64,000 nt of DNA, from positions 32,001 through 96,000 of IMG/VR virus record IMGVR_UViG_3300042544_003795; one strand, given 5' to 3'. How positions within the stretch are numbered: position 1 is the first letter of the stretch; each line of letters opens with the position of its first letter. The notes under the pieces were generated by a model, which ran no database searches, was not told the DNA's origin, and worked only from the letters and a program-made list of their open reading frames with translations. Made by a program: the position numbers and the translations under genes. Shown one piece after another: positions 31,630-52,629 of the stretch. The stretch is from a virus.

Positions 31630-31669
31630 AAATAAAATTTAAAGACCACACAAACTTTCAGTAATTTCT

Positions 31670-31906: not shown

Positions 31907-32214
31907 GTTTTTACCCAGTTTCCTTTTCCAAATCCACTTCCATCACCTGACCCATCACCATATCCAGATCCAACATTCACTGGGTATGACTCCCCTTCGT
32001 CATTATCATCGTTGCTTTCGTCGCCTCCTCCATCTCCTATTCCGTGACCTTCTCCACAGCCATCTCCCTCTCCATCGCCATCCCCAGATCCATATCCAAA
32101 CCCCTCGCCCCAGTTGCACCCATGACCATTGCTAAATCCATGTGGATTTTCATAAATAGGCACAGATTCATCTATGATGAAATCCTTAAATTGGTTATTT
32201 AGTAAATTATGCAT
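31891..32214 (-). CDS. Gly-rich array member 8
   Basis: MHNLLNNQFK head plus (G-X)n. Confidence 0.8.
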   Translation of the reverse strand: MHNLLNNQFKDFIIDESVPIYENPHGFSNGHGCNWGEGFGYGSGDGDGEGDGCGEGHGIGDGGGDESNDDNDEGESYPVNVGSGYGDGSGDGSGFGKGNWVKTWENQ

Positions 32215-32234
32215 AATTAAGTTAAATTCCATTA

Positions 32235-32510
32235 TTAACATCTATCACAGTATCCTTCTCCAGTCCCAGCTCCATTACCTGTACCTAAACCCCAGCCAGA
32301 GCCCTTCCACATCCCTATACCACTCCCATCACCCGAGCCTTTACAATCTGACTCTCCCCACGCATCTCCATCTCCATCTCCCCAGCCATATCCATATCCA
32401 TCACCATCTTCATATCCACGGCCACTAGAGATTGCAATGGCATCTTCAAAAAGATACGGCGAGTCGCCTGCCATTAAACCTTTAAAATCGTTAATTAGTT
32501 GAGTTTTCAT
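32235..32510 (-). CDS. Gly-rich array member 7
   Basis: MKTQLINDFKGL head plus (G-X)n. Confidence 0.8.
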   Translation of the reverse strand: MKTQLINDFKGLMAGDSPYLFEDAIAISSGRGYEDGDGYGYGWGDGDGDAWGESDCKGSGDGSGIGMWKGSGWGLGTGNGAGTGEGYCDRC

Positions 32511-32523
32511 AAAAAAAATACAT

Positions 32524-32862
32524 CTAGATCCAATGCCACCCTCCAAAGTCAACAACCCCATCCCCACTTCCTCTACCACTGCCACAACCAAAACCATCAC
32601 CAACATTATAGCTATCTCCATAACCATTAGAGTGACCGTACCCATAACCAGAACCGTCTTCATTGCCAAATCCTGACCAGTACCCTTCTCCCTGTCCGTC
32701 ACCACCCTCTTCACCATCTCCATCTCCGCTCCCAGATCCATAGCCAAAACCTATCCCGTTGCCACATCCAGAGCCATTGCTAAATCCAGTTAGGTCTTCA
32801 GAAAGATCGAGAGATGCATCTACAACCAAGCTTTTAAATTTGTTAATTAGTAAAGTATTCAT
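32524..32862 (-). CDS. Gly-rich array member 6
   Basis: MNTLLINKFKSL head plus (G-X)n. Confidence 0.82.
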   Translation of the reverse strand: MNTLLINKFKSLVVDASLDLSEDLTGFSNGSGCGNGIGFGYGSGSGDGDGEEGGDGQGEGYWSGFGNEDGSGYGYGHSNGYGDSYNVGDGFGCGSGRGSGDGVVDFGGWHWI

Positions 32863-32865
32863 AAT

Positions 32866-33162
32866 TTAATTAATTACTACCCCATCTCCATCTCCATAAC
32901 AAACTCCATTAATTACTACCCCGTCCCCATCCCCATCCCCATAACAATTTCCATTTCCATTTCCGAGTCCATTTCCTGATCCAAATCCATCGCCATCATT
33001 GTAGCCATAACTATCCTCACTCTCTTCTCCAACACCATAACAGAAACCTAGACCGAGACCGAACCCACGCCCATTACTCATTACAATCGAATTTTTAAAA
33101 AGATAAGCAGAATCGCTATCAGCGATTAAACCTTTAAATTGATTAATTAGTAAAGTATTCAT
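32866..33162 (-). CDS. Gly-rich array member 5
   Basis: MNTLLINQFKGL head plus (G-X)n. Confidence 0.8.
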   Translation of the reverse strand: MNTLLINQFKGLIADSDSAYLFKNSIVMSNGRGFGLGLGFCYGVGEESEDSYGYNDGDGFGSGNGLGNGNGNCYGDGDGDGVVINGVCYGDGDGVVIN

Positions 33163-33412
33163 AAATTTCAAGTCCCATACCTCTACCATTACCAGATCCA
33201 AACCCAGCTCCATTACCAGATCCAAATCCATGACCTGATCCCGGTCCATACCCAGTTCCATAACAATGTACTGATCGAGAGCCGTCTTCACCAAATCCTG
33301 ATCCATTTCCAAACCCCTGACCATCTATAGACCCTGAACCGTGTCCATGTTCACATGGTTCAAGTACAGGAGAGCTTGTAAATGCGTGGTGATTACAAAG
33401 AGAAAATTTCAT
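33143..33412 (-). CDS. Gly-rich array member 4
   Basis: (G-X)n tract. Confidence 0.8.
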   Translation of the reverse strand: MKFSLCNHHAFTSSPVLEPCEHGHGSGSIDGQGFGNGSGFGEDGSRSVHCYGTGYGPGSGHGFGSGNGAGFGSGNGRGMGLEIYEYFTN

Positions 33413-33415
33413 AAT

Positions 33416-33664
33416 TTAAATTATCCAGTTAATTGTATACCCAGTACCGTCACCTGTACCATCACCTTTCCCCTTTCCTGATCCTTCATCATATCCAGAT
33501 GAATAACCAGAACCATCACCAGACCCAGCTCCATCAATAAACCCACAGCCAAACCCATAACCAAGCCCAGATCCATCACCTAACCCATAGCCAGACCCAG
33601 ATCCATCACCAGATCTACAGATCAAATCAGCAAAATCACCATGATGTCTATAAAATAAATTCAT
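33416..33664 (-). CDS. Gly-rich array member 3
   Basis: MNLFYRHHGDFADLIC head. Confidence 0.82.
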   Translation of the reverse strand: MNLFYRHHGDFADLICRSGDGSGSGYGLGDGSGLGYGFGCGFIDGAGSGDGSGYSSGYDEGSGKGKGDGTGDGTGYTINWII

Positions 33665-33672
33665 ATTATCTA

Positions 33673-33924
33673 TTAAGACTCGTCTCCAGCTCCATCACCT
33701 AATCCATTGCAGTATCCTGATCCATCACCTAACCCATCTTCAAACATACTTTTAAGTCCAAATACACCATATCCACAACCAAACCCATAAATAGACCCAT
33801 AACCACTACCGAATCCATATGCATCACCAGATCCGTCGCCAGTTCCATGACCAGATCCAGATCCAAATCCAGATCCACAAATCAAATCAGCACAATATCC
33901 GTTATGTATATAAAGTAAATTCAT
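33673..33924 (-). CDS. Gly-rich array member 2
   Basis: MNLLYIHNGYCADLIC head. Confidence 0.82.
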   Translation of the reverse strand: MNLLYIHNGYCADLICGSGFGSGSGHGTGDGSGDAYGFGSGYGSIYGFGCGYGVFGLKSMFEDGLGDGSGYCNGLGDGAGDES

Positions 33925-33967
33925 AAGTTAATCGCTGTTTCTAAAACCAAATCCATTTCCTGTACCA

Positions 33968-34315
33968 TCACCAAAGCCAATACATGTGCTGAACTTGTCT
34001 GCTACCCCCATCTCCCTCGCCGTCCCCATCTCCAGCACCATCGCCCTCTCCATATCCATCTCCAGATCCATCTCCAGATCCCTCTCCAGACCCAAAACCA
34101 CAAGAAGATCCCCACCCGTCACCATAGCCATCACCTTCACCATAACCATCTCCAGACCCAGAGCCTCCGCCTGAACCATAACTAAATCCGCATCCATCAC
34201 CAAAGCCAGCCGCGAAGCCACATCCATCACCATCACCATATCCAGATCTACCTCCATCGCCAAATCCATGGATTACATTAGGAGAGAATCCTTGATGTGC
34301 GTGAAGTAAATTCAT
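33968..34315 (-). CDS. Gly-rich array member 1
   Basis: MNLLHAHQG head plus (G-X)n. Confidence 0.8.
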   Translation of the reverse strand: MNLLHAHQGFSPNVIHGFGDGGRSGYGDGDGCGFAAGFGDGCGFSYGSGGGSGSGDGYGEGDGYGDGWGSSCGFGSGEGSGDGSGDGYGEGDGAGDGDGEGDGGSRQVQHMYWLW

Positions 34316-34319
34316 AAAA

Positions 34320-34356
34320 TAAAAAAAGCGGAGCAGGGATATTCCTGCCCCGCAAT
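34320..34356 (-). terminator. Terminator between DUF6948-like gene and Gly-rich array
   Basis: GCGGGGCAGGAATATCCCTGCTCCGC then T-tract. Confidence 0.8.
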
Positions 34357-34367
34357 TTTTCGTATTA

Positions 34368-34733
34368 CTATTCGACGAATTTAATGTAAGTAGCCTCGGC
34401 TTCTGGAGTAGTTGGGATATATTCAATAGCATTCGTCAGATAAACCTCTCCGGTTGCATTCAAACGGCCTCCTTTAATGCCGTCTTTAGCTACAGCAGAT
34501 AGACTTAGACCGCCGCCTTCCCATTTCCATAGTCGCAAGGCATTTTTTAGTTTCACTTCCATCGAATTAGTTGGGTTTACATATTCTACGTCTCCGATAT
34601 GAACACCAGCCGAGTATGTTCGAATGATACAGCGGCGACCTAGCATTGGATGAGGAGGGGAAACAGATGAGTTAAGCCCTGAAAACATAGAAGCTAACTG
34701 TTTGGCTTCGCCAATTGTCATATTGTCAATCAT
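34368..34733 (-). CDS. DUF6948-like phage protein
   Basis: IIRTYSAGVH.G...V.L.NA.RLW.W.G..SLS.VA..G; true start lies after the tRNA. Confidence 0.8.
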   Translation of the reverse strand: MIDNMTIGEAKQLASMFSGLNSSVSPPHPMLGRRCIIRTYSAGVHIGDVEYVNPTNSMEVKLKNALRLWKWEGGGLSLSAVAKDGIKGGRLNATGEVYLTNAIEYIPTTPEAEATYIKFVE

Positions 34734-39935: not shown

Positions 39936-40271
39936 TTAATCTCTGACATTTCTCATGCTTTCAGAGAAATAATCATACTCTTGCTGGAAGTCGATTTCCC
40001 ATGTGCCGGGAGACAATTTAATATCATTATGCCTATCAGCTATAGCGCAACGAACAGTGGTCTCAACTGAATTTTTTATAAAGCGCCTGTCCCCTTTTTT
40101 ATAAACATTCACTCCGGGTTTTAGATCTACGACGTGATGGTTGCCCGTTACTTCGCTGTCAGCAATTACAACATATTTACTTTCGATTTTCTCTTGTTCA
40201 GCTTCAGCAGGGAGACGAGACGAAAACAAAACACATTCACCGTGAACGATAGCTTTTTTTAATTTTTTCAT
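39936..40271 (-). CDS. His-motif beta protein, typical neighbour of DUF6745 genes
   Basis: HGEC.L, SEVTGNHH, H..I.L.PG.W....QQEYD; own promoter TTGACT-N16-TATACT. Confidence 0.8.
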   Translation of the reverse strand: MKKLKKAIVHGECVLFSSRLPAEAEQEKIESKYVVIADSEVTGNHHVVDLKPGVNVYKKGDRRFIKNSVETTVRCAIADRHNDIKLSPGTWEIDFQQEYDYFSESMRNVRD

Positions 40272-40342
40272 ATAAAGTAATAAGATGACTATTTGAGTAT
40301 ACACATTTTAGTGTTTTAGTCAAGACCTTTTTCAAAAAATCT

Positions 40343-40804
40343 TTATTTGTTTAAGTTTTTTATTAATGAATTACTGGAATTTATAACACCTTCTTTGATT
40401 GAAGTCCTAATCGTATTTCTCAAAGGTATTCTTAAAGAAGAAGTTACCGAATAAGAAAGAGAATTATCAATTAAATGACTCATGGGATTAAAAAAAGAAG
40501 AGTTTAGTAAATCCCAAGGTTCACGCCGAGTTTTTGCCAAAAGAGACATTTCTGTTAAATATCTTGTTTTTGCAATTACTTTTTGTTTATCAATATCCGC
40601 ATTCATCTCTCTGATTTTAGATTTTATTAATGGATACGCTTTAATACCATTAATATTTTCTGACATAGGATTTATGAAGGACAACATTATACCTGATGCA
40701 TTTTCAATCTCGCAGGATGACAGTAGAGAGACCCAAAACTCTTTTAAGATAGGATCTCTCAATGAAGCCCGAGCAGATTCGCCTAAAATAGAATTTTTAA
40801 TCAT
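40343..40804 (-). CDS. Tetrad-repeat array member (double length)
   Basis: NSLS YSVT SSLR IPLR NTIR TSIK; ends LIKNLNK. Confidence 0.7.
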   Translation of the reverse strand: MIKNSILGESARASLRDPILKEFWVSLLSSCEIENASGIMLSFINPMSENINGIKAYPLIKSKIREMNADIDKQKVIAKTRYLTEMSLLAKTRREPWDLLNSSFFNPMSHLIDNSLSYSVTSSLRIPLRNTIRTSIKEGVINSSNSLIKNLNK

Positions 40805-41033
40805 TATTTAAATATTCTTTAAAATAAATACTGTTTAATTCTTCGACTACATTCCTACAACATGTTGGGTCCATAGAATTAGGGATCAATAAAGATCTCC
40901 AATGAAAATCTACTATATTTTTCCTAAGACTACTTTCAAGTGAAGAATTAATAGAGTCCAAAATAGGCCTACGAATACTGGAATTATATTCCCTTGGTAA
41001 AAACCTAATTTTATTTTTCAGTCTATATGACAT
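40797..41033 (-). CDS. Tetrad-repeat array member
   Basis: SSIR RPIL DSIN SSLE SSLR. Confidence 0.7.
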   Translation of the reverse strand: MSYRLKNKIRFLPREYNSSIRRPILDSINSSLESSLRKNIVDFHWRSLLIPNSMDPTCCRNVVEELNSIYFKEYLNND

Positions 41034-41045
41034 ATAAGAAATATA

Positions 41046-42002
41046 TCAAGAAATCGAAAGGACATTTAACTCTCTGCCCCGGAATCTTTCTTTAATAGCG
41101 TCTTGCAGGGACCTGCAACGAGGAGAGACAGCTTCAACATGCCAAACTCCAGTAGTCTGATTAAGCATTTTCAAATGCGGAGCGAATTTCACCCCTACAA
41201 ATAATTTCTTCATATCCCAAAGTTCATACTCAGATTTTGTCCACCACTCCTCATCGTAATTTTCATAAGTGTCTATTTTAGTGCCCAACTCTAACATTCT
41301 CTCTACGCCGTATTTTTTGACAAAAGCCATTTTTACATCAGCATTTTTAATAGAATTATAATACTGAATATTTAATTCATGAGATGGAGTTTCAGCCAAT
41401 TCTTGAGGAACTGTTATTCCATCCAGTGACCATACATTGGGAGCGAAAGCTCCTGCATACTCAATAGCTGGACCATCGCTATCTGCATGGACTTTCCCTT
41501 CTTCATTGATTTTAATCTTCAATGGCTTTTGAGAGACAATACATACATGATCAAGAGGGAAAATCATTCCAAGTTTAGTAGAGTCTTCCCAAATTTTATA
41601 TTTAGCTAAAATATCATCTTGAACTTTAATTTTCAATTCATTAAAGACATAATCATAAAAAGAAAATAATGATGCACCGAAAGATCCATCTAGAAACGGA
41701 TTAACAAAATCAGCAAGTTTCATTCTCGTTTTACCACTTACGTAGTCCTCAACTCTCCCTAGGATCTCATTGACAGGAGTTCCCTCTAAAGCAATGTGAC
41801 AGGCAATCCATGCAAGAATAGGATTATCTACAATGATAACCGGTGTTTTTTTTCGATTCAGTAGTTCCGTTTGAATCTTATTAACAATATCTAGAGTCTC
41901 GTCATAGTCAAGACGGTCTGTATTATGACCGATAGCAATCCATTTTTTAATGTAATCCGCTTTAGCAGCTTCGTTTTCAGGAGTCAAAGATTTAATTTTC
42001 AT
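41046..42002 (-). CDS. DUF6745-like protein
   Basis: I.SLTPE...W, VCIVSQKP, G.VH..DGPAIEY, GI.VP, NA.V...V.KYG.ER. Confidence 0.85.
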   Translation of the reverse strand: MKIKSLTPENEAAKADYIKKWIAIGHNTDRLDYDETLDIVNKIQTELLNRKKTPVIIVDNPILAWIACHIALEGTPVNEILGRVEDYVSGKTRMKLADFVNPFLDGSFGASLFSFYDYVFNELKIKVQDDILAKYKIWEDSTKLGMIFPLDHVCIVSQKPLKIKINEEGKVHADSDGPAIEYAGAFAPNVWSLDGITVPQELAETPSHELNIQYYNSIKNADVKMAFVKKYGVERMLELGTKIDTYENYDEEWWTKSEYELWDMKKLFVGVKFAPHLKMLNQTTGVWHVEAVSPRCRSLQDAIKERFRGRELNVLSIS

Positions 42003-42006
42003 ATGT

Positions 42007-42213
42007 TTAAATATTTTTATATTGTTTATTTTCTACTTCTTTATATTCTAAAACTTTTTCGACATCTATACAGTTTAAAGCTTTTCTTTTTAACGAATGA
42101 GGACAATTAGCTCTATAAGCCTTCCAGACAATTTTACCATCATAATTTTGCAATTTAATGTGCCAATTTTTGATTAATCTAATTTGATTTCTTTTTTTAT
42201 TTTGAACAGTCAT
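42007..42213 (-). CDS. Hypothetical protein
   Basis: Coupled ORF. Confidence 0.6.
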   Translation of the reverse strand: MTVQNKKRNQIRLIKNWHIKLQNYDGKIVWKAYRANCPHSLKRKALNCIDVEKVLEYKEVENKQYKNI

Positions 42214-42392
42214 TTTATGAGGTTCATAATTTTATATTTCAACGGATCTATAATGCTCGCCGAGATCTCTCCGTCAAAAAAAGCATTGTCTATTATAAAG
42301 TCAACACTTTCTTTTTTAGAAATATTTGTGTACTCATGATCATCTTCAAATTTTTGTTTACACAGATCTAAATATTGATTAATCGTTTTCAT
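42210..42392 (-). CDS. Hypothetical protein
   Basis: Coupled ORF. Confidence 0.6.
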   Translation of the reverse strand: MKTINQYLDLCKQKFEDDHEYTNISKKESVDFIIDNAFFDGEISASIIDPLKYKIMNLIK

Positions 42393-43963
42393 TTAATTTA
42401 TCAATTATATCATTTATTGAAAGATCTTTAACCATATTATTATCTGGATAGTTTATTAAATCATAAATTGAGCGTCGAATAGAAAATGCATTAAACGAAG
42501 AATGAAAAATTAAATCATTAATTAAAAACAGAAAAGAACCCTGTATTCCAAGGCACACTTTATGACCAATTATATCATTGACTTTATACTCGTTAATATT
42601 AGAAATTTTCATTTAATTTGTTAATCATTTTTTGTGTTAATCTTCCAATTGAATTCCCGAATGGATTTTCAACTAAATGATAAATTGAATCATCTGTTAA
42701 ATCCTCAATTGAATGAAGAAATGGGTTTTGTATTAAATTCAAAATTTTCCATTTAACTGAATCATAAACTAAATTATAAGTTCCGTAACAGTACAAACTA
42801 AAACTTTTCATTCAATTGATCTATTAAATATTCTGTTGAATTACAGATTGAAATGAAATAACTATCAGAAAAATCTACGATTGAGTTCTCAATAGAAGGA
42901 ATTAATGGATTACTGATAGCGTATAAGATTGAATCCCAGACTGGAATTTTTACAGAACGCGAAACTCTACCATGAAGCGGATTAAAATCAATCATTTAAT
43001 TTGTTAATTGAATTTATAGATTGACGCAAGATTTTATTGCCAGTCGAAACTTGTACAACATTAGAAACAGTATTTTTAACTAAATAATAATTTGAATTTC
43101 TGAATGAACTGTATATAGAATCTATAGATGAAGAATCACTAATAGAATGGAATATACGTTCACTGATTGTAATTTTTATGTTATAAAGATTTCTCATTTA
43201 GCTTTTTAATTAAATTTAGTTCTTTAATCGAATTTATAAATGAATCCTCTACTGAATTTTCACTTGAACCTCTCACTTTCGAAAATGTTGACTCCGAGAG
43301 AGAACAGAATAGTGAATAGTCAATCGAATTATAAATTATTAAACAAATTTGATTGTAAACAGATTCATTTATTAATTTTTGAACTTTATTAATACTTTTC
43401 ATTCATTTTTTTAACTAAATTTTTAGCAGAATCTTTTACTGAATATTTGACAGGATCTCGACCCATAAAATATATAGGAGAAAAAAGATAATTCTTTAAA
43501 GAAAAAAGGGAATCTAATCCGCTAATTGAATTATAAACTGATGTCCAAATTTTATTTTTCATTCAATTCTTTAATTAATTTTTGAGCAGAACTTTGAATT
43601 AAATTTTCAGAGGAATCTCTAACTGGAATTTCAATTAGAGTATAAATTAAATTTTGGACTGAATAATCAACAGAGTGACGTAGAGAATTATAAAGTAGAT
43701 TTGTTATTTTATTCCTTACTTCCCATCGTATATGAACACTTTGCATTTAAATTATCTATAAGAATTTTTGATGAATTTTGAATAGCTCGCCATATAAAAT
43801 TATTAACTGCATGTCCAACAGAATCCTGAAAAGAATAAAGAGTTGGATTTAGCATTGAAGTCGAAATTGATTTCCACATTAAATCAGAAATTAAATTACT
43901 TGTTTTAATAAGTTTTTCATTTACTTGATCATTATAAATGCGAATTTTATAAGAAGGTTTCAT
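42379..43963 (-). CDS. Eight tandem overlapping 57-84 aa tetrad-repeat paralogues (43709..43963, 43552..43746, 43389..43562, 43181..43402, 42988..43197, 42798..42995, 42599..42811, 42379..42612)
   Basis: x-S-[ILV]-x four-residue periodicity, C-terminal LIxxLNEK-like end; 43389..43562 is absent from the track. Confidence 0.8.
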
Positions 43964-43975: not shown

Positions 43976-44359
43976 TTAGTTAGACTCCCAATCTCCTTCG
44001 CCATTTGTGAAATAAACATTTTTAAAATTTAATTGATTCAACATATTAGAACAGCATTCGCAAGGCTTACTCTGATTGAACTCTCCATTCCTGTCAATCC
44101 TTAATACAGCCAAAGAATATTTTCTGCAATCAGTCTTACCAAATTTAATGGCCGCAGCAAGTTCTGCATGGAGACGAGAGAAATCTTGATACCCATATTT
44201 TTTAATTTGAGGATGAGTCTTTTTTGAATTCACCCCTATTGATAATATATTATTACCTTTAAAAATAAACGCAATATGGAAACACCTGCTCTCACGAGAT
44301 AAGTTATCCCAAGCTAAAGTTTTAATTCTTTCTAAAACTTTTCTTTTTTTAATTATCAC
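43976..44359 (-). CDS. Cytidine/dCMP deaminase-like Zn protein
   Basis: LHAE..A and SKPCECC. Confidence 0.85.
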   Translation of the reverse strand: MIIKKRKVLERIKTLAWDNLSRESRCFHIAFIFKGNNILSIGVNSKKTHPQIKKYGYQDFSRLHAELAAAIKFGKTDCRKYSLAVLRIDRNGEFNQSKPCECCSNMLNQLNFKNVYFTNGEGDWESN

Positions 44360-45698: not shown

Positions 45699-46475
45699 TT
45701 ATAAATTAATATTTTTTCTTCTTATAAAATTTAAATCGAAGGTTGTATAATTAATAGGATATTTATTAAATGGCAAAAGTGTAGGGCTAGTATATCTCCA
45801 ACCTGCCCCCCATTTTTCATTCAAATATTCAAAGTTAATTAAATTAATTTCATTCAATCTTTTTGCTAAATCAGGATTAGATTTTTTAGTTTGACTCCCA
45901 TGAATATAATATTCTGTACAGAATCCTGTCCCATGCAAATAAGGCTTGCTCAAATTACACACTCTTTTAATATTTCCATTATGCAATCTCAATATATAAT
46001 CAGCATCTTCACTATAAGCAGGAGTAAGATTCTCATCGAATAAACCATATTGCTGAATTACAAAATCTTTAATCAAGAAAAGATCCCATGCTCCTTGGCC
46101 GAAATCTCCTCCATAAGGATGCACCATACCCACCTCTGGGTCTTTAGCATTTTCGAAGATTTCTTCTAGCAGTCCCTCTGTGAATGCTATATCGTCGTTT
46201 ACTATGATCCAATACGGAGAATTTATATAAGATTTTATAATCAAATTCCAAGCTGCCGAAACTCCTAAATTAGCAGGTAAATGACATATAAATAATTTAT
46301 CAATAAATTTATTCTCTATTAATCTTAACTTTTCAAGTTCGTTTGTTATTTCGTCTTTTCCATTATTATTAAATATAATAAAATTCTCCAATGGGTAATC
46401 TATACTTTCATATAAACGCTTTACCCAATGGGGATTTTTCATTACAGCTGTTCCTATAACAGGTATTTTATTCAT
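45699..46475 (-). CDS. GT-A (GT2-like) glycosyltransferase
   Basis: NLGVSAAWN, IVNDD, GLFDENL.PAY.ED.DY. Confidence 0.85.
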   Translation of the reverse strand: MNKIPVIGTAVMKNPHWVKRLYESIDYPLENFIIFNNNGKDEITNELEKLRLIENKFIDKLFICHLPANLGVSAAWNLIIKSYINSPYWIIVNDDIAFTEGLLEEIFENAKDPEVGMVHPYGGDFGQGAWDLFLIKDFVIQQYGLFDENLTPAYSEDADYILRLHNGNIKRVCNLSKPYLHGTGFCTEYYIHGSQTKKSNPDLAKRLNEINLINFEYLNEKWGAGWRYTSPTLLPFNKYPINYTTFDLNFIRRKNINL

Positions 46476-46496
46476 TTATTATTTTTTTGTATGTAT

Positions 46497-47939
46497 TTAA
46501 AATTCAACTTTAGATACAATATTATATGAAAAATAAATCATAAATTGTCCAAGATGGGTATTTTTCCAATAATCTCTAAAATCATATAAATACTGATCAT
46601 TGAAAATATCTACAGTTATATCTTTTCCTGTCCTTTCGTATACATGTATATCTAAGCAGTCTCTTAAATATAAATCTCGGAATTCAATGAACCTTTCTAC
46701 TGCATTTTCATGATCGTTAATATGCCATTCTCCAGCGAAATTTTTAATATTATTTCTAATAAAATTGTAGTTCTCTTTTGTAAAGATTGAATATTCCCCA
46801 CCTTCGCAATCAAATTTTAAAAAATCAATTTTAGAAATATTATAATCTTTAATAATTTTTTCAAATGTAGTGGTAGAATATAAATCTCCTTCATGTTCAT
46901 ATATATAAACTCCGTTTTCTGGTATAGATTTTATATCTTCTTCATCAGAAATTGCCTTATTTATAAAAACAACAGGACCATGGGAAACATTTTTTCGCAA
47001 ATAATTTATAACATTATTTGATGGCTCAATACAATAAACCTGTTTCGGTTTTTTATCCAAAATTGAAAAAGTAAATGACCCATAGTTTGCCCCAATATCA
47101 AATACTATATCATCAGTTTTTACTTCTTGATGTTTTTCGTATGTTCTATAAATAAAATTTTCATTTTTAAATAAATTCACGTACTCTTGGTCTAAAGTCC
47201 CCCAATCGAAATTTGATATATTACTTACCCATTCTTGATTTTTTTTCGTGTTATCAATATAAATAATAATTGTTCCATAATATTCGATAAACCAATCATC
47301 CCAAAGACTCCATTTGATATCCATGTCATCCATAGAAAAAATTTGATGATTTTGCATTTCTTTTAAATACAAATCTCGAAATTCTTTAAATTTATCTTTT
47401 AATTCTCTATTATGTAAATGCCATTCTCCACTTATTTTTTTTACATTATTTTTTATCCATTCAAAATTTTCTAAATTAAATACATCGTATTCTCCACCTT
47501 CGCAATCTATTTTTAAAAAATCTATTTTCTCAATATTATATAAATCTATAAATGTTTTAAAGGTTAAAGAACAAGCCTCTGATTGGATAGACCACATATC
47601 AGGAAAGTTTTTATTATATAACCCATTAAAGATAATTTTACCATTTTTATCAGAGATGCCTTTGTTCAATAAAACAACATTGCTTTTATCTAATAAATTA
47701 GAACTTAAATTTTGAAATAATTCTGGATGAGGTTCTAAACAAAAAACTTTTTTAGGGTTTTTCTCTAGTATATTATAAGAGAATGGGCCTACACTAGCAC
47801 CTATATCTACGACGATATCATTCTCTTCTACGGAAAAAAATTTCTGATAATCATCTTTATCTATTATTTCATGTTTTAATATATTTAAAAACCAATCATC
47901 TTCGGCTATGAGACCCCAATCAAAATTTTTGTCAATCAT
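46497..47939 (-). CDS. FkbM-family methyltransferase, two tandem domains
   Basis: DIGA..G and IDFLK.DCEGGEY each occur twice. Confidence 0.9.
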   Translation of the reverse strand: MIDKNFDWGLIAEDDWFLNILKHEIIDKDDYQKFFSVEENDIVVDIGASVGPFSYNILEKNPKKVFCLEPHPELFQNLSSNLLDKSNVVLLNKGISDKNGKIIFNGLYNKNFPDMWSIQSEACSLTFKTFIDLYNIEKIDFLKIDCEGGEYDVFNLENFEWIKNNVKKISGEWHLHNRELKDKFKEFRDLYLKEMQNHQIFSMDDMDIKWSLWDDWFIEYYGTIIIYIDNTKKNQEWVSNISNFDWGTLDQEYVNLFKNENFIYRTYEKHQEVKTDDIVFDIGANYGSFTFSILDKKPKQVYCIEPSNNVINYLRKNVSHGPVVFINKAISDEEDIKSIPENGVYIYEHEGDLYSTTTFEKIIKDYNISKIDFLKFDCEGGEYSIFTKENYNFIRNNIKNFAGEWHINDHENAVERFIEFRDLYLRDCLDIHVYERTGKDITVDIFNDQYLYDFRDYWKNTHLGQFMIYFSYNIVSKVEF

Positions 47940-47941
47940 AT

Positions 47942-48820
47942 TTAAATTAAGTTTTTTTCAACTTCAAAATGGGCACTATCAGGAGGAGCAGCATTCTCGC
48001 AAAATTTACACAAATCAAAAGTTGAAAATGGGGCAGGCAATATATCATCATACTCTTGATTAAATAGATTGCCTATTATATGATCTAATCCATAATCCAT
48101 ACAACACAAAGAGACATCTCCATTAGGAAGCAAAACATTATGATATAATCTTTCATAACAGTTGCAAGTCATTTTTTTATCTCCATGATAAATTGTTTTA
48201 TATTTATCTTTTAAATTTAATAACTCAGGCTTTAAAATAGACTCATGCCTTAGGTTACCTGCTCTGGACCACATTTCGCTAGGTTGTATACCATCAAATA
48301 CATGTTTTACTTTTTCGTGGACTGATCCCATAGACATTATATAAAAATTATTAATTTCATTTCGGATTGAGCCGATATACTCTATTAACTCTATATATTT
48401 ATTGCTTATAGGATGCTTTGCTAAAAGTTCATTATCGGGGAGATGCAGAACAAAACCTCCGTTAGGATGACCAGCGAATGGTATATGTTTTATTCTCTCC
48501 ATATCTGATATACTCATACCTATACCAGTCGTAAATACAGCTATACCATGGCCTCTCTCATATGCATAGAGAACCATATCAGTGCAATTTTTGTTTAACC
48601 AAGGTTCTACAAAACCTGCAAATGTAATTCTTATTTCTTTAGGTAGTTTATCTATAATTTTTTTATAATCTTCAAAAGATAATACTTTATTTCCTTTATA
48701 TTTTTGAACCAATAATCTTTGAGGACAAAAAGAGCAGTCAACAATACATCCATTTAAAGGAATAGATGTCGTGATCTCTAAACAAGCATAAGGGGTTGAT
48801 TTCCAGTAATTTTTTAACAT
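47942..48820 (-). CDS. Radical SAM / SPASM protein
   Basis: CIVDCSFC; GDVSLCCMDY...C..C. Confidence 0.88.
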   Translation of the reverse strand: MLKNYWKSTPYACLEITTSIPLNGCIVDCSFCPQRLLVQKYKGNKVLSFEDYKKIIDKLPKEIRITFAGFVEPWLNKNCTDMVLYAYERGHGIAVFTTGIGMSISDMERIKHIPFAGHPNGGFVLHLPDNELLAKHPISNKYIELIEYIGSIRNEINNFYIMSMGSVHEKVKHVFDGIQPSEMWSRAGNLRHESILKPELLNLKDKYKTIYHGDKKMTCNCYERLYHNVLLPNGDVSLCCMDYGLDHIIGNLFNQEYDDILPAPFSTFDLCKFCENAAPPDSAHFEVEKNLI

Positions 48821-48826
48821 TTTTTA

Positions 48827-49960
48827 TTAACTTAAGTTTTTTAGATTATAAAGGACAGATTGTTTATGATTCTCATCTAAGGGCTCATGAATAGAAAGAT
48901 ATTTGAATATATCTCTAGATTCTTCGCATAATCCTGTCCACCATGCGCTTACAGCTTTTTCGAAAATTATACCATAAAATCCCGGATAGTCAATATCTGT
49001 TTTCAACTTTATACAATCATCTGAAGAAACTTTTTCTCCAATAGAAGATATTAAATATGCATTAAACCATTTTTGAGTTCTTTCATAGAATCTACTTAAA
49101 TAAAAATACCCTTCAGGTCTTTTAGGCATTAAAGCTACTGAATGTTGAAGCATTCCTTCTACAGAATTATTCCTACAACCTTGAGACTCAAAGCACATAG
49201 ATGCCCTTAATAAACATTCGTAAGACAATAAACTATCATAAGCTCTTTCAGCACACCTTAAATAATAAGAAACAGCAGAAGCCATTTGGCCTATATTATG
49301 ATAGAAGTAGCCCATACAAAAATTAATTTCAGCAGAATTAGGAAATTCTATATAGTGATTTAATAAACATTTTAATACATCTTCTTCACCCATTATTTTA
49401 TAGAAATCTGTAATAGAATGGATATTCATCCAATCTTTTTTATTCTTAATAAAATTTTCATAATTTATCTCTACGTTTATGTCAATTATATTTTGACTGC
49501 CTTTCCTTATGATTCCTAAGCCGTTATCCATATCAATAGTAATCATTTCCAGATCACTCCTATCTCTTCTTAAATTAACAAATGCTTTCCAGCAATCTCC
49601 TGTCCATATACCTCCTGAATATGGTATCGTTTGCATCTTTTCGTCGTAAGGCAACATATCATGACATATTATAACGCCTTCTTCACTAAGACAATTTAAA
49701 CTGTTTACAATATCTTTATATACTTGATCAGAGTGATGTAAGCCATCAATCAATATAATATCGAATTTTTCTGTATTCTCTTTGAAAAAAGTATCAGAAT
49801 CTTTTTTTAAAATATCACTTAAAGATGTATTCGGGTCAACCCCGATTTTATAATCTATTTTTACTTCTTTAAATGTTATAGCATTATCAATACCTATCTC
49901 AAGGTATTTTTTATAATTATTTTTTTTAATTAAATAATTTATTATATGTATTTTATCCAT
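48827..49960 (-). CDS. Methyltransferase fused to TPR-like domain
   Basis: YLEIG, IDGLH, WTGD.WK; C-terminal P.RPE.Y..L repeats. Confidence 0.8.
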   Translation of the reverse strand: MDKIHIINYLIKKNNYKKYLEIGIDNAITFKEVKIDYKIGVDPNTSLSDILKKDSDTFFKENTEKFDIILIDGLHHSDQVYKDIVNSLNCLSEEGVIICHDMLPYDEKMQTIPYSGGIWTGDCWKAFVNLRRDRSDLEMITIDMDNGLGIIRKGSQNIIDINVEINYENFIKNKKDWMNIHSITDFYKIMGEEDVLKCLLNHYIEFPNSAEINFCMGYFYHNIGQMASAVSYYLRCAERAYDSLLSYECLLRASMCFESQGCRNNSVEGMLQHSVALMPKRPEGYFYLSRFYERTQKWFNAYLISSIGEKVSSDDCIKLKTDIDYPGFYGIIFEKAVSAWWTGLCEESRDIFKYLSIHEPLDENHKQSVLYNLKNLS

Positions 49961-50722
49961 TTATATTTTAAATTTATTTTCTACTATTTCATAGCTATAA
50001 TTATGAACGAAATCTTTCCCATTAAAATCTCTACTAAATTCTTCTTCTATCAAATCATCCCAATTTCTATCATTTTTATGACTCCAATTTTTAACTTTTC
50101 TAAGCATCTCTTTTTTATTTTTAACCCATGAATAATGATGCAGAAGAACATTCCCATCCAATCCTAAAATAGGAGTTAAATCACCATGTATTAGTCTTTG
50201 TTCATCCCATAATTTTTGATAGAATTGTTTTAATTCTAAGGGACTATTTAAGTCCCAATCTTTACAATCTTTTTTTTGTATAAGAACTCCAGCGCTTTCT
50301 GTTTGAGTAGCTTTATAGAAAGGCTCTCTAAAATACCAATTACAAGTAAAATTAAAACATAAATCTTTAGAACTATTATGTTGGAACCATTCTTTAAAAT
50401 TGTCATCGACTATTTCATCAGAATCTAAAAATAAAACCCAATCATTCTTAGCTGAATCAAGACCCGTTTTTCTACTGAGGTTATTATAATAAGTAGGGAT
50501 TTCTGTAACTCCTTCCCACCGTATATTTAATATTTTACATTTATTAAAACTATTTATTATATCTATTGATTTAGATAATAAATCATCATTTTCCTTTTCG
50601 CCATTGTAAAAATGATCGCATATAGTAACTATAATTTCATCACTAAACTTGTCACATTGTAATAGATTTATTTTTAAAAATTTTAAATCATTAGAGTTGT
50701 ATTGTAAAACTGTTGATATCAT
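49961..50722 (-). CDS. GT2-like glycosyltransferase
   Basis: DWVLFLDSDE, HHYSW. Confidence 0.8.
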   Translation of the reverse strand: MISTVLQYNSNDLKFLKINLLQCDKFSDEIIVTICDHFYNGEKENDDLLSKSIDIINSFNKCKILNIRWEGVTEIPTYYNNLSRKTGLDSAKNDWVLFLDSDEIVDDNFKEWFQHNSSKDLCFNFTCNWYFREPFYKATQTESAGVLIQKKDCKDWDLNSPLELKQFYQKLWDEQRLIHGDLTPILGLDGNVLLHHYSWVKNKKEMLRKVKNWSHKNDRNWDDLIEEEFSRDFNGKDFVHNYSYEIVENKFKI

Positions 50723-50723
50723 A

Positions 50724-51704
50724 TTAAGAATAAACGAATTTTTCAATAAAGCTTTTAGGGCATTTTAATAAATAAGCTGCATTGTCTTGAAAACCGAAAG
50801 AGATTAAATAATTATCTTCGTATTCAGCTAATCCTATACAGAACTCAACATCTGCATCCATAAAATGGAATTCAGGAGTAACTTTAACTATATCAAAATT
50901 TTTGTCCCACACTATAAAACGATGATAATAAACAGCATCTTTTCTTCCAGCTTCACTTTTAAATAAATCTACTTCGTGAGTTATAGCAAAGTAACCATCT
51001 TTAAAAGGTAAAATTTGAGATCCACCTCTTAAATCTCTAGGAAGATTTACAGATTTTCCAAATTTAAGAGTTTCAGAAAATCCAGTTTCAGTATCAAATT
51101 TAACTAACTCTGTTGGATTTGCCCACTTTACATAATGGAATGGCATATCCAAAATTGGCATCCAATTTTTTTCACAATAAGAATCAGGATTGGTTAATAA
51201 TTCTATCCTTTTTCTACTTATTTCTTTAACTCCGTTTTCAAAAATTTCTATTTCAGATAATTCCATTCTCCCTTGACCGTTAGTGGTTGTATCTCTTCTA
51301 ACTCCACTAATAAATAATTTATTATCCCATTCTATTAAACGAGCATCTTCTAATCCTACAAAGTCCCACAGAGGTTCGTATATATCGAATTCGCTTGTAT
51401 CTATTTTAAAGAATTTTTCTATTTTAAATTTATTTGATAATTCACAATACCAATTCCAAGTTCTTAAGTGTACATCATTCTCAGGATGAATATAAGTCAA
51501 TGGTCCATAAGGATGTTGAAATAATTTTTTCTCAGAATGATAGAACGTATAATTAACATGTCTAATTATAACTGTTATTTTTCCATCTTTTACCATTACA
51601 GATGGATTCATTAATCCTGTGCCATTTGTAAATTCTGAAGGTAAAATGAGAGGATATATATCTCCCCCATTATTCAAAATACATTTTACCAAATTTTTTT
51701 CCAT
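50724..51704 (-). CDS. Five-bladed beta-propeller glycosidase/phosphorylase-like protein
   Basis: MNPS, GLEDARL, EKNW.P, RGGS, VEFC.GL. Confidence 0.75.
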   Translation of the reverse strand: MEKNLVKCILNNGGDIYPLILPSEFTNGTGLMNPSVMVKDGKITVIIRHVNYTFYHSEKKLFQHPYGPLTYIHPENDVHLRTWNWYCELSNKFKIEKFFKIDTSEFDIYEPLWDFVGLEDARLIEWDNKLFISGVRRDTTTNGQGRMELSEIEIFENGVKEISRKRIELLTNPDSYCEKNWMPILDMPFHYVKWANPTELVKFDTETGFSETLKFGKSVNLPRDLRGGSQILPFKDGYFAITHEVDLFKSEAGRKDAVYYHRFIVWDKNFDIVKVTPEFHFMDADVEFCIGLAEYEDNYLISFGFQDNAAYLLKCPKSFIEKFVYS

Positions 51705-51723
51705 AATTTAATATATTCAGATT

Positions 51724-52629
51724 TTATTTTCTTATTGTATTGTAATTACTTTTCACAAAGTCAACTGTTTCTTTAAGACCATCTCTTAAAGAAGTAAACT
51801 GAAAATTAGGCAAATATTTTTTAATTTTAGAATTATCACTAGGTTTTCTATATTGTCCATTAGGTTTAGATTCGTCCCATATAACTTTTCCATCGAATTC
51901 CATTAATTCAACTACTAAATTTACGACTTCTCTAATAGAAATTTCTTGGCTAGAAGATAAAATGATAGGTTCTTCTTCACTGTAATTTTCCAAAATCCAT
52001 TCTGAAAGAAAAGCCACATCTCTACTAAATATAAATTCTCTTAATGGTTCACCGTTTCCCCAAATAGTTAATGGAGTATTGGTATTTTTAGCTATATAGC
52101 ATTTATGAACTATACATGGGATCACATGGCCATTTATTAAATTAAAATTATCATTTGGGCCATAGATATTGCATGGGATTACACATTTATAATTAGTTCC
52201 GTATTGCTCTTTGTATGATTTAATTTGAATATCCAACATCCTTTTAGAATAGGCATAAGAGTCATTAGAAAAATGAGGAGGACCTAAATGTATTTTTTTT
52301 TCAGTCAAAGGATAAGATGTATCGTCTGGAAAAATGCAAGTTGATAAAAATGCTACTAAATTTTTGACTCCATGTTTAAAAGAAGAATTGATAACATTTG
52401 TATTCATCATAATATTCTCATAAAAAAAATCTCCTTTACTTGACATATTACTTAAAACTCCCCCAACTTTTGCTGCACAATGAATTAAATTATCTGGCTT
52501 CTCTTTTTCAAAAAACAAATCAACATCTTTTTGATTTATTAAATTTACATCTTTAGATGAAAGCTTAATGCATTTATCAGAAAACTCTGATCCAACTAGA
52601 CCTGATCCACCTGTTATTACGGTTTTCAT
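51724..52629 (-). CDS. fcl: GDP-L-fucose synthase
   Basis: TGGSGLVG, AAKVGG, STCIFP, YAYSKR, NIYGP.DNF, WG.G.PLREF. Confidence 0.92.
   Translation of the reverse strand: MKTVITGGSGLVGSEFSDKCIKLSSKDVNLINQKDVDLFFEKEKPDNLIHCAAKVGGVLSNMSSKGDFFYENIMMNTNVINSSFKHGVKNLVAFLSTCIFPDDTSYPLTEKKIHLGPPHFSNDSYAYSKRMLDIQIKSYKEQYGTNYKCVIPCNIYGPNDNFNLINGHVIPCIVHKCYIAKNTNTPLTIWGNGEPLREFIFSRDVAFLSEWILENYSEEEPIILSSSQEISIREVVNLVVELMEFDGKVIWDESKPNGQYRKPSDNSKIKKYLPNFQFTSLRDGLKETVDFVKSNYNTIRK

What the first reader, a model, noticed from the sequence alone, without database searches (positions are those of the whole stretch)
39936..43963. Second core-plus-library system: DUF6745-like and His-motif genes flanked by about 10 tetrad-repeat microproteins
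Seen: eight upstream and two downstream short paralogues with four-residue periodicity (e.g. ESVY NQIC LIIY NSID YSLF CSLS ... NSVE DSFI NSIK). From recall, many DUF6745 proteins carry an internal xSQV/xSQL tetrad repeat; this 318-aa copy has none. Inference: the repeat module has been split off and expanded as interchangeable subunits supplied in trans, giving variable specificity. The layout mirrors the Gly-rich locus about 6 kb away, hinting at a shared strategy.
Basis: partly seen in the sequence, partly recalled or inferred. Interest (0 to 1): 0.85.

Follow-up and report, generated by a model that had tools for sequence, protein, structure and literature searches.

The report
Detached repeat microproteins around phage DUF6745
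An uncultured phage has a conserved gene pair of unknown function (DUF6745 plus a small histidine-rich partner) whose usual built-in four-amino-acid repeat is missing and is instead encoded by ten fast-changing mini-genes next door, predicted to dock where the repeat used to sit.

Summary
On the minus strand, eight tandem small genes (43963-42379) and two more (41033-40343) form one paralogous family with a strict four-residue period. They surround a 318-aa DUF6745 gene with no internal repeat and a His-motif gene (39936-40304).

Among 70 distinct relatives from phage and bacterial contigs, 22 carry an internal tetrapeptide array, always at one site. None of these has free repeat genes nearby. 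Of 48 repeat-less relatives, at least 27 have such arrays.

- A profile built only from the window's ten microproteins hits the internal repeats (E 3e-26).
- A co-fold places a microprotein on both flanks of the vacated insertion site: ipSAE 0.75, best control 0.00.
- The array gains and loses whole genes between phages about 92% identical.
- The array's pooled dN/dS is 0.48, against 0.04-0.05 for the core pair.

Function is unknown. The only studied analogue is the tunable tetrapeptide-repeat counter-defence protein gp54 of mycobacteriophage Tweety, which is not a relative.

Caveats: only about three well-supported independent fused/split transitions exist, and binding is predicted, not shown. 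Earlier agents of this scan noted the same split layout in other genomes, so it is not new to the scan. No paper in the held library mentions DUF6745.

The parts
43709..43963 (-). Tetrad-repeat microprotein 1 (84 aa), first of the upstream array
   Evidence: ORF; family profile E 2.7e-22; dN/dS 1.11 against the L006 orthologue
43552..43746 (-). Tetrad-repeat microprotein 2 (64 aa)
   Evidence: E 1.2e-23; dN/dS 0.38
43389..43562 (-). Tetrad-repeat microprotein 3 (57 aa); absent from the ~92% identical relative L006
   Evidence: E 2.1e-20; gene-sized indel
43181..43402 (-). Tetrad-repeat microprotein 4 (73 aa), the most regular copy; used as partner in the co-fold
   Evidence: E 8e-25; co-fold ipSAE 0.75 vs best control 0.00; dN/dS 0.26
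42988..43197 (-). Tetrad-repeat microprotein 5 (69 aa)
   Evidence: E 3.9e-15; dN/dS 1.63
42798..42995 (-). Tetrad-repeat microprotein 6 (65 aa)
   Evidence: E 9.5e-20; dN/dS 0.38
42599..42811 (-). Tetrad-repeat microprotein 7 (70 aa)
   Evidence: E 1.9e-24
42379..42612 (-). Tetrad-repeat microprotein 8 (77 aa)
   Evidence: E 2.2e-16; dN/dS 0.17
42210..42392 (-). Small ORF (60 aa), conserved but not a clear family member
   Evidence: Family profile E 0.55; dN/dS 0.06
42007..42213 (-). Small ORF (68 aa), conserved, not a family member
   Evidence: No family hit; dN/dS 0.07
41046..42002 (-). Repeat-less DUF6745 core protein (318 aa). The site where relatives carry the tetrad array lies between residues ~73 and ~96-104
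   Evidence: Pfam PF20530 E 8.2e-10, 38.7 bits vs cut-off 27; 213 homologues at E<=0.001; insertion site mapped; dN/dS 0.04
40797..41033 (-). Tetrad-repeat microprotein 9 (78 aa), inserted between DUF6745 and its partner gene
   Evidence: E 3e-19; dN/dS 0.95
40343..40804 (-). Tetrad-repeat protein 10 (153 aa; the repeat lies in the C-terminal half), also between DUF6745 and its partner
   Evidence: E 1.3e-18; dN/dS 0.24
39936..40304 (-). His-motif partner protein ('ExTGNHHV ... RH ... EYD ... V.D'; probable start at 40271, 111 aa). Normally the direct neighbour of DUF6745
   Evidence: Found on the same strand, mostly directly adjacent, next to DUF6745 in nearly all of the ~77 viral/metagenome loci, fused forms included. 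Found in 15 of 16 bacterial/MAG loci. AF2 pLDDT 90.5, all-beta. No PDB fold match; best Z 3.5

Best explanation
The region is a three-part phage module.

**Core pair (shown).** The core is a widely conserved gene pair: DUF6745 plus a ~110-aa histidine-rich all-beta partner.

**Fused versus split forms (shown).** In most lineages, including basal phage clades, prophage-like elements and bacteria, DUF6745 carries a hypervariable array of four-residue units. The units read x-x-[S/N/Q/A/E/K]-[V/I/L] and are inserted at one fixed site. AlphaFold models the array at low confidence as a long helical hairpin projecting from the globular body. In one clade of large aquatic phages, mostly T4-like where context genes show it, the array is missing from DUF6745. 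The same kind of repeat is instead encoded by tandemly duplicated, translationally coupled mini-genes beside the pair. This window belongs to that clade.

**Docking (predicted).** Each microprotein is predicted to dock on DUF6745 at the helices flanking the vacated insertion site. It would thus supply the repeat in trans.

**Turnover (shown) and its meaning (inferred).** The array gains and loses whole genes and changes amino acids far faster than the core. A plausible result is a set of alternative surfaces on one constant core.

**Role (by analogy only).** The likeliest role is a fast-evolving interaction with a host or rival-phage protein, such as counter-defence. This rests on analogy with Tweety gp54. 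No activity of DUF6745 or its partner is known.
For: **Family membership**
- Pfam DUF6745 is matched above its cut-off.
- 213 homologues of ~320 aa were found, in phage contexts (rIIB, lysozyme and others).

**Fused forms**
- The tetrad array sits at one site in all fused forms.

**Exclusivity**
- 0 of 22 fused rows have free repeat ORFs, against 27 of 48 plain rows. Fisher p is 1.9e-6, uncorrected for phylogeny.
- Two more plain loci were rescued later: L041 (xxEV type) and L030.
- The fused L054 (QV type) is sister to L040 and L043, which are plain and have free QV-type ORFs.

**Position of the mini-genes**
- They lie between DUF6745 and its partner in the window, L006, L028 and L029.

**Sequence link**
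- The window-only profile hits internal arrays at 90.6 and 54.4 bits, against 30.2 bits for the best reversed control.
- 88 of the best 150 hits among 1.84e9 representatives are DUF6745.
- About half of the 120 listed hits of a free microprotein against longer proteins carry PF20530.

**Reciprocal scan**
- Free arrays were found in 13 DUF6745-positive records.
- Otherwise they occur only in records that are 6-23% complete.
- Near-complete DUF6745-less genomes hold the repeat only inside another protein family.

**Co-fold**
- ipSAE was 0.75, 0.81 and 0.74 in three runs; the best of 3 controls was 0.00.
- That mark was reached by 58 of 80 solved complexes and 2 of 110 mismatched pairs. These counts hold only roughly here, because own alignments and three chains were used.
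- The runs share at least 70% of contacts, and the partner's pLDDT is 72-78.
- Contacts on DUF6745 include residues 61-72 and 95-138, the two flanks of the insertion site.

**Turnover**
- There are three gene-sized indels in the array against otherwise colinear flanks at ~92% nucleotide identity.
- Pooled dN/dS is 0.48 for the array, against 0.04-0.07 for the core genes.

**Analogue**
- Tweety gp54 is tuned by its repeat number (PMC9262239, PMC2884959).
Against: - **Few independent events.** The fused/split states need only 7 changes on the tree, 3 of them on well-supported branches. The independent-pairs test cannot reach significance (median p 0.5), so the exclusivity may be lineage history.
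- **Plain loci without free ORFs.** About 18-21 of the 48 plain rows show none in the DNA held. Four partial records (25-77% complete) searched whole also had none.
- **Repeat not exclusive to DUF6745.** It also sits inside a second phage family (C-terminal ..GLVPSFDG..WRLH, some with DUF7666) and in Tweety gp54.
- **Weak model of the array.** The helical-hairpin model has pLDDT of only 50-66. A period of exactly 4.0 does not fit an ordinary amphipathic helix or coiled coil.
- **Co-fold limits.** It is a model score obtained outside the tool's calibrated set-up. Only one of the ten paralogues was tried.
- **Partly constrained conservation.** The LNEK/MK conservation is forced by overlapping frames.
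- **No functional evidence.** Pfam, PHROGs, PADLOC, PDB sequence search and fold searches gave nothing informative.
Confidence: 0.6

Rival explanations
1. The mini-genes are an independent, fast-evolving family of small early phage proteins, for example stand-alone inhibitors or decoys aimed at host proteins. They accumulate in the same plastic genome region as DUF6745. They share a repeat type with it by common descent or convergence, but do not bind it or work with it.
For: - Free arrays lie up to 5-8 kb from DUF6745 in several loci (L018, L019, L027, L034).
- The repeat is a mobile module used by at least three unrelated protein architectures.
- Few independent transitions exist.
- Many plain DUF6745 loci have no free ORFs in the DNA held.
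- The region is full of other small unrelated genes.
Against: - No fused locus of 22 has free ORFs.
- Mini-genes are wedged between DUF6745 and its otherwise adjacent partner in four loci.
- In the SV-pattern scan, free arrays were found only with DUF6745 or in very incomplete records.
- The co-fold score was 0.75 against 0.00 for controls, with contacts at the insertion site.
- The repeat dialect of free ORFs matches that of the nearest fused relative (L054 against L040/L043).
Confidence: 0.25
2. The small ORFs are not genes. They are open frames thrown up by decaying 12-bp tandem DNA repeats, which stay open in several frames, and the DNA repeat itself is the functional or selfish element.
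For: - In relatives with perfect 12-bp repeats, up to six frames are open over the same DNA.
- Some window copies have dN/dS near or above 1.
- No ribosome-binding motif is obvious at the AT-rich junctions.
Against: - In the window the DNA repeat has decayed, yet the protein-level period 4 persists.
- Every unit has a start codon, the same strand and a 4-17-nt (once 38-nt) coupled overlap with its neighbour.
- The same peptide pattern x-x-[SNQ]-[VIL] is written with different codons in different phages (TCTGTA, CAAGTC, AATGTC and others).
- Five of the eight scorable copies have dN/dS of 0.17-0.38.
- Independent gene calls exist in three other assemblies.
- Each locus keeps its own N-terminal leader and C-terminal tail.
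Confidence: 0.05
3. The microproteins work with the His-rich partner or as self-assembling helical bundles, not with DUF6745. The predicted DUF6745 interface is then a modelling artefact, with amphipathic helices laid onto a helical surface.
For: - The co-fold had three chains and own alignments, outside the tool's calibration.
- The partner gene is as tightly linked to the arrays as DUF6745 is.
- The fused-form hairpin is modelled with low confidence.
Against: - All confident contacts listed are with chain 1 (DUF6745), none with the partner chain.
- Replacing DUF6745 with an unrelated protein dropped the score to 0.00.
- It is DUF6745, not the partner, that carries the repeat in fused forms.
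Confidence: 0.1

Closest known systems
Internal tetrapeptide array of DUF6745 (Pfam PF20530) proteins of phages, prophage-like elements and bacteria (examples here: L054, L066, L073, L076, L086, L090)
   Same: - The repeat unit is the same, and the window microprotein profile hits these arrays.
- The core domains are the same, 24-55% identical.
- The adjacent His-rich partner gene is the same.
   Different: - In those proteins the repeat is covalently inside DUF6745, and no free repeat genes lie nearby.
- In the window the core has a 25-residue linker instead, and the repeat is spread over ten separate genes.
- No member has a known function, and no paper in the held library mentions DUF6745.
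Mycobacteriophage Tweety gp54 (with Che8 gp57 and PMC gp51): a tetrapeptide-repeat, mutationally 'tunable' counter-defence protein against the Phrann gp29/gp30 (p)ppGpp-synthetase-like defence
   Same: - It is a phage accessory protein with a central run of 15-48 four-residue units. Two positions of each unit are fixed and two vary.
- Its repeat number changes readily.
- It is the only such protein with an experimentally assigned role (PMC2884959, PMC9262239; sequence read).
   Different: - It is not a relative: there is no Pfam hit, and profile comparison with DUF6745 gives probability 0.2%.
- Its unit is [G/W/Q][S/Y]AA.
- There is no His-rich partner next to it; the neighbour gp56 is DUF732.
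- Its repeat is covalent, not split into separate genes.
- One lead only: a 392-aa metagenomic protein with SV-type tetrads (P0327) resembles the gp54 N-terminus weakly (pairwise E 0.001).
Microcystis phage Ma-LMM01 MAP_174 / MAP_175 (and the MaMV relatives)
   Same: - It is a cultured phage carrying the same pair: a repeat-less DUF6745-like protein (26% identity to L075 by tblastn, E 2e-15) next to a homologue of the His-rich partner (hhalign probability 97.8%, E 8.7e-13).
- Both are annotated as hypothetical proteins.
   Different: - It is very distant from the window's copy, which found no match in the 50,697-record phage collection.
- Whether Ma-LMM01 has free repeat genes was not examined.
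Second tetrad-bearing phage family: variable N-domain (some Pfam DUF7666) + tetrad array + C-terminal '..GLVPSFDG..WRLH' domain
   Same: It has the same SV-type repeat module inserted between two conserved halves of a phage protein.
   Different: - Its flanking domains are unrelated.
- It is found in phage genomes that lack DUF6745.
- No free microprotein arrays were seen with it.

Membership tests
Pfam DUF6745 (PF20530) | Match to the family profile above the curated gathering score | tested here: met
   38.7 bits vs cut-off 27, E 8.2e-10, residues 142-238. Most homologues carry a precomputed PF20530 hit. The fold model of a 47%-identical relative matches an ESM Atlas cluster that is 93% DUF6745 (TM 0.68).
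Pfam DUF6745 (PF20530) | Adjacent small His-rich partner gene (an empirical feature of the family, not part of the Pfam definition) | tested here: met
   The partner was found in nearly all of the ~77 viral/metagenome loci, in 15 of 16 bacterial/MAG loci and in Ma-LMM01. In the window it lies 742 nt downstream, with two mini-genes in between.
Pfam DUF6745 (PF20530) | Internal tetrapeptide array between the N- and C-domains (common in the family, not universal) | tested here: not met
   The 318-aa protein has no run of 3 or more tetrads. A 25-residue linker occupies the site. This does not affect Pfam membership; 48 of the 70 relatives are likewise repeat-less.
Free tetrad-repeat microproteins of DUF6745 loci (no database family) | Small protein (about 45-150 aa) dominated by period-4 units x-x-[S/N/Q/A/E/K]-[V/I/L] | tested here: met
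   Period-4 signal at z 6.5, 5.5 and 4.3 for lags 4, 8 and 12. The window copies are degenerate: only one reaches p ~2e-4 on the strict motif count.
Free tetrad-repeat microproteins of DUF6745 loci (no database family) | Sequence similarity to canonical free copies and to internal DUF6745 arrays beyond that of reversed or shuffled controls | tested here: met
   186 hits at E<1e-3 outside the window's own lineage; the best are 90.6 bits (internal array) and 49.6 bits (free ORF). The best reversed control is 30.2 bits, and shuffled sequences give none.
Free tetrad-repeat microproteins of DUF6745 loci (no database family) | Tandem, same-strand, coupled genes near a repeat-less DUF6745 | tested here: met
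   for the window; for at least 27 other loci.
Tweety gp54-like tetrapeptide-repeat counter-defence proteins | Homology of the flanking N- and C-terminal regions to gp54 | tested here: not met
   hhalign of gp54 against the DUF6745 alignment gives probability 0.2%. gp54 has no Pfam family.
Tweety gp54-like tetrapeptide-repeat counter-defence proteins | Counter-defence activity tuned by repeat number | not testable with these tools
   This needs phage genetics. It is known for gp54 only from the literature (PMC9262239).

The most novel reading that the evidence does not exclude
DUF6745 and its His-rich partner form a constant effector or scaffold. A genome-encoded, rapidly turning-over library of repeat microproteins plugs into it one at a time, at the site where other lineages carry a built-in hypervariable hairpin. 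The phage would thus hold a combinatorial set of target-recognition surfaces, for example against diverse host defence proteins. This would be a protein-level 'cassette' system that achieves by gene fission and duplication what Tweety gp54 achieves by changing its repeat number.
Probability: 0.3. Interest if true: 0.85.

Novelty: new variant of a known kind. Interest (0 to 1): 0.7.

Why it matters
DUF6745 and its partner are widespread. The tetrad profile alone finds 1,772 cluster representatives, mostly DUF6745, and the pair occurs in T4-like phages, other phages, prophage-like elements and bacteria. Yet nothing is known about what it does.

The split form gives a rare natural experiment. The same module exists both as one protein and as a core plus many separate pieces. 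This argues that core and repeat work together, and it marks where they touch.

The split also makes the system easy to test. Single mini-genes can be expressed, swapped or deleted without touching the core.

If the analogy with Tweety gp54 holds, these arrays would be a large unexplored class of fast-evolving phage counter-defence or host-interaction factors. The strict 4.0-residue repeat would also be an unusual structural element worth solving.

Tried and rejected
**Searches that gave nothing useful**
- Megablast of the region and of 24 kb around it against 50,697 phage records found nothing relevant.
- tblastn of the window's DUF6745 against the same records gave no match.
- No whole genome is held for the window.
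- The first viral scan, with the single protein, found nothing; the alignment was needed.
- PHROGs and PADLOC gave only weak or compositional hits. PADLOC's 'REase_II nicking endonuclease' profile matches the repeat itself.
- PDB sequence searches found nothing.

**Fold searches**
- Foldseek against PDB found nothing for either model.
- The VIA wide search of the fused model returned only generic helical hairpins with Z below 8. The globular domains were barely tested.
- The His-rich partner's best match was Z 3.5. That is no evidence of a new fold.
- BFVD returned only uncharacterised phage proteins.

**Weak leads dismissed**
- The Pfam Gp5_trimer_C hit to NV-type microproteins (19-22 bits against a cut-off of 30.9) was treated as compositional.
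- A strict motif count missed the window's degenerate copies and the xxEV dialect of L041. Detection had to be widened, and several singletons (L013, L014, L072, L079) were judged false.

**Underpowered or failed steps**
- The independent-pairs test on the tree is underpowered.
- The search for DUF6745 forms longer than 557 aa found none, which is weak evidence.

**Idea considered, not tested**
- The N-terminal leaders (for example MNLREQIY) could act like T4 capsid-targeting sequences of internal proteins. Nothing here bears on it.

Full report
**What is there.** The window is phage DNA.
- It carries six tRNA genes at 28.9-35.0 kb, an endolysin, a metallophosphoesterase and several PHROG families.
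- Genes are densely packed on one strand, in 25-35% G+C DNA from about 18 kb onward.
- It has no close relative among 50,697 deposited phage genomes, and no whole genome is held.

On the minus strand between 43963 and 39936 lie fourteen genes in a row:
- eight small genes of 57-84 aa;
- two small genes of 60 and 68 aa;
- a 318-aa gene;
- two more small genes of 78 and 153 aa;
- a 122-aa gene.

The eight upstream and two downstream genes align as one family. A profile of the ten finds each at E 1e-15 to 1e-25 and nothing else in the window. Their four-residue period is real. Self-identity at lags 4, 8 and 12 is 6.5, 5.5 and 4.3 standard deviations above shuffles, and the hydrophobic spectrum peaks at 4.02 residues.

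The 318-aa protein matches Pfam DUF6745 above the curated threshold.
- The 60- and 68-aa ORFs are not clear members.
- The His-motif gene probably starts at 40271.
- The conserved 'LNEK' tail overlaps the next gene's start codon. 'AAT GAA AA' read one base later gives 'ATG AAA', so the tail is partly a junction constraint of the tandem unit.

**The core pair.** The DUF6745 protein has 213 homologues at E<=0.001 among proteins of similar length, mostly from metagenomes. Where context could be read, they sit in large phage contigs with T4-type markers such as rIIB and lysozyme.

An alignment-based scan gave 73 viral loci and 16 loci in bacterial genomes or MAGs. In nearly all, DUF6745 lies next to a homologue of the window's 122-aa gene, either just downstream or just upstream.

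That partner has these properties:
- It has invariant or near-invariant Gly, Glu, Thr, His, His, Glu and Asp positions: 'E.TG..H', a second His, 'E.D', and a final 'V.D'.
- It folds confidently as an all-beta protein (pLDDT 90.5).
- It has no convincing match to a solved structure. The best Foldseek E-value is 0.09 and the best VIA Z is 3.5.
- Its only BFVD match at E<=0.001 is an uncharacterised phage protein.

The cultured Microcystis phage Ma-LMM01 carries the same pair, both annotated as hypothetical (MAP_174 and MAP_175).

**The internal repeat.** This was checked on real sequences. Fifteen of the viral loci and most of the bacterial ones encode DUF6745 proteins of 327-495 aa whose extra length is a run of 5-48 tetrads.

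The run is always inserted at the same place. It follows the N-terminal domain and precedes the '..P(Y/F)L.GSF' segment. In window numbering that is between residues ~73 and ~96-104, where the window protein has a 25-residue linker.

The units follow x-x-[S/N/Q/A]-[V/I/L], with W, R, G, D and E common at the first position. They come in 'dialects': SV, QV, QI, NI, NL, SL and AV.

AlphaFold2 on a fused form (L054, 47% identical to the window protein) gave the N- and C-terminal parts as one confident globular body (pLDDT above 90). The repeat came out as two ~70-residue helices forming a hairpin, at pLDDT of only 50-66. Fold searches returned only generic helical hairpins and did not really test the globular part. 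An ESM Atlas search matched DUF6745 clusters, among them a cyanobacterial cluster in which DUF6745 is combined with leucine-rich repeats.

**Free repeat genes elsewhere.** Arrays of small genes made of the same tetrads are common beside repeat-less DUF6745 genes.
- L012 has four or five xxNV genes directly upstream.
- L028, L029, L043, L046, L064 and L067 have them directly downstream.
- L019 and L021 have at least 14.
- L041 has eleven of an xxEV/xxKV dialect that my first filter missed.

Each phage has its own leader and tail around the repeat. The peptide pattern is written with different codons in different phages, so it is the protein that is conserved, not the DNA. Degenerate copies like the window's also occur in L016, L018, L020, L024 and L010.

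**Are the window's mini-genes related to the internal repeat?** Yes, as far as a repeat allows the question.
- A profile built only from the ten window proteins hits the internal arrays of L076 (E 3e-26, 90.6 bits) and L066 (E 7e-15), and canonical free ORFs down to E 2e-13.
- The best hit against the same sequences reversed is 30.2 bits, and shuffled sequences give nothing below E 0.5.
- A free SV-type microprotein searched against longer proteins finds mainly Pfam DUF6745 proteins.
- The tetrad profile searched against 1.84 billion cluster representatives gives 1,772 hits at E<=1e-3. Of the best 150, 88 are DUF6745 proteins.

**Co-occurrence.** On 70 distinct DUF6745 sequences with the repeat columns removed, 22 are fused and none has a free repeat ORF in the flanks. 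Forty-eight are plain, and 27 have free ORFs. Fisher p is 1.9e-6. Later checks added L041 and L030, and probably L010.

This number is not corrected for relatedness. The tree needs only 7 changes of the fused state, 3 of them on well-supported branches. The independent-pairs test cannot reach significance, although no pair goes the wrong way.

The fused forms occupy the basal clades and the bacterial or prophage-like copies. The plain forms with free arrays form a derived clade of large aquatic phages. Fission is therefore the more economical reading, although the tree is not rooted.

One case is telling. The fused L054, with QV-type units, is sister to L040 and L043, which are plain and have free QV-type genes just downstream.

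In the window and its 97% relative L006, and in L028 and L029, the mini-genes sit between DUF6745 and its otherwise adjacent partner.

**Reciprocal test.** A DNA pattern for SV-type tetrads found 71 stretches in about 55 viral records.
- Arrays of two or more free small ORFs occur in 13 records that have DUF6745.
- They also occur in four records without a DUF6745 match, which are only 6-23% complete.
- Near-complete genomes without DUF6745 hold the repeat only inside a second protein family.
- That family has a variable N-domain (some Pfam DUF7666), the tetrads, and a conserved '..GLVPSFDG..WRLH' tail.

So the repeat is a mobile module and not exclusive to DUF6745. In this sample, however, free arrays go with DUF6745.

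**Predicted docking.** One co-fold job was run with the window's DUF6745, its partner and the 73-aa microprotein, each supplied with an alignment and with the microprotein as the scored chain.
- The verdict was that the model supports binding but does not show it.
- ipSAE was 0.75, 0.81 and 0.74 in three runs, and the best of three controls was 0.00.
- The mark was reached by 58 of 80 solved complexes and 2 of 110 mismatched pairs in the tool's calibration. That calibration holds only roughly here, because own alignments and three chains were used.
- The runs agree in at least 70% of contacts, and the partner's pLDDT is 72-78.
- All confident contacts are with DUF6745. They include residues 46-49, 61-72 and 95-138, the helices on both sides of the insertion site.
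- Replacing DUF6745 with an unrelated protein took the score to 0.00.

**Turnover.** Against L006 (about 92% nucleotide identity over 12 kb) the flanks are colinear. The array differs by three gene-sized indels: one copy found only in the window (43389-43562) and two found only in L006.

Pooled dN/dS of the shared microproteins is 0.48, with three copies near or above 1. The values are 0.04 for DUF6745, 0.05 for the partner and 0.06-0.07 for the two non-member small ORFs. Five of the eight scorable copies lie at 0.17-0.38. Together with the coupled starts and the independent gene calls, this argues that they are translated.

**What it most likely is.** Shown:
- a conserved DUF6745 plus partner pair;
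- a hypervariable tetrad array that is either inside DUF6745 or, in this lineage, spread over neighbouring mini-genes;
- fast turnover of those genes.

Predicted: the mini-proteins dock at the vacated site. Inferred: they are alternative subunits that diversify one surface of a constant core.

The role is unknown. The only experimentally studied tetrapeptide-repeat phage protein is Tweety gp54. It has unique N- and C-terminal regions flanking 40-48 units, and escape mutants that gain or lose units become able to overcome the Phrann gp29/gp30 defence (PMC9262239; repeat described in PMC2884959).

gp54 is not related to DUF6745, so this is a 'works like' comparison, not membership. A weak N-terminal similarity between gp54 and a metagenomic protein with SV-type tetrads (pairwise E 0.001) is only a lead.

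**Novelty.** No paper in the held library mentions DUF6745 or DUF7666. Earlier agents of this scan, working on other genomes, had already noted three things: the internal arrays, the His-rich partner, and in two cases detached repeat mini-genes. Those notes agree with this report but are not independent evidence. I reached the same reading from this window's own data before reading them.

What this window adds:
- a degenerate dialect of the mini-genes;
- the mutual exclusivity counted on a tree;
- gene-level turnover between near-identical phages;
- a control-backed co-fold that places a microprotein at the insertion site.

Noticed in passing
window 31417-34432, minus strand: A second tandem array of about nine small paralogous genes (70-154 aa) rich in G-[DSY]-G units, each with a short hydrophobic leader. 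It coincides with a strong negative GC skew (to -0.55) and lies next to a tRNA cluster.
   Followed up: partly
window 1-17000 versus 18000-64000: G+C is 40-50% in the first 17 kb and 25-38% in the rest. Both parts hold phage-like genes: an endolysin at 5014-5556, and PHROG families at 12366-13064 and 15648-16685. This may be a mosaic genome or an assembly join.
   Followed up: no
L090-L098 (Candidatus Marinacidobacterales MAG, contigs CBDFHB010000001/2): At least nine copies of the partner + DUF6745 pair in one 6.5-Mb genome. Most lie at the end of a repeated element of at least 9.6 kb (96-98% identical between copies) that ends with an HNH endonuclease gene. The copies differ mainly in the number and sequence of SV tetrads.
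   Followed up: partly
P0133, P0160, P0165, P0177; L119, L125, L131, L138, L161, L169: A second phage protein family of 250-300 aa carries the same SV-type tetrad array. The array sits between a variable N-domain (some Pfam DUF7666) and a conserved tail '..AY.SS.F...WKY....PFQ...LW..G.VPSFDG..WRLH'. The family occurs in phage genomes that lack DUF6745.
   Followed up: partly
L054, L076, L012:7457-7711: PADLOC profile PDLC03396 ('REase_II, Type II nicking endonuclease'), positions ~387-504, matches the tetrad repeats (E down to 1e-9). Some seed proteins of that profile may therefore contain a similar repeat.
   Followed up: no
ESM Atlas cluster (row 2): A cyanobacterial cluster of 62 proteins combines DUF6745 with leucine-rich repeats (LRR_4 in 89%, LRR_8 in 81%). 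This is a different repeat module on the same core.
   Followed up: no
window 43976-44359 and 45699-64000, minus strand: A dCMP/cytidine deaminase-like gene sits directly upstream of the array (Pfam E 1.8e-6). Upstream of it runs a long series of 200-520-aa genes. The homologous stretch of the 97% relative L006 carries glycosyltransferase, methyltransferase and epimerase Pfam domains.
   Followed up: no
L012:7084-7242: One of the xxNV mini-genes in this relative is partly masked as a run of N or X in the stored record, so its copy count of four to five is uncertain.
   Followed up: no
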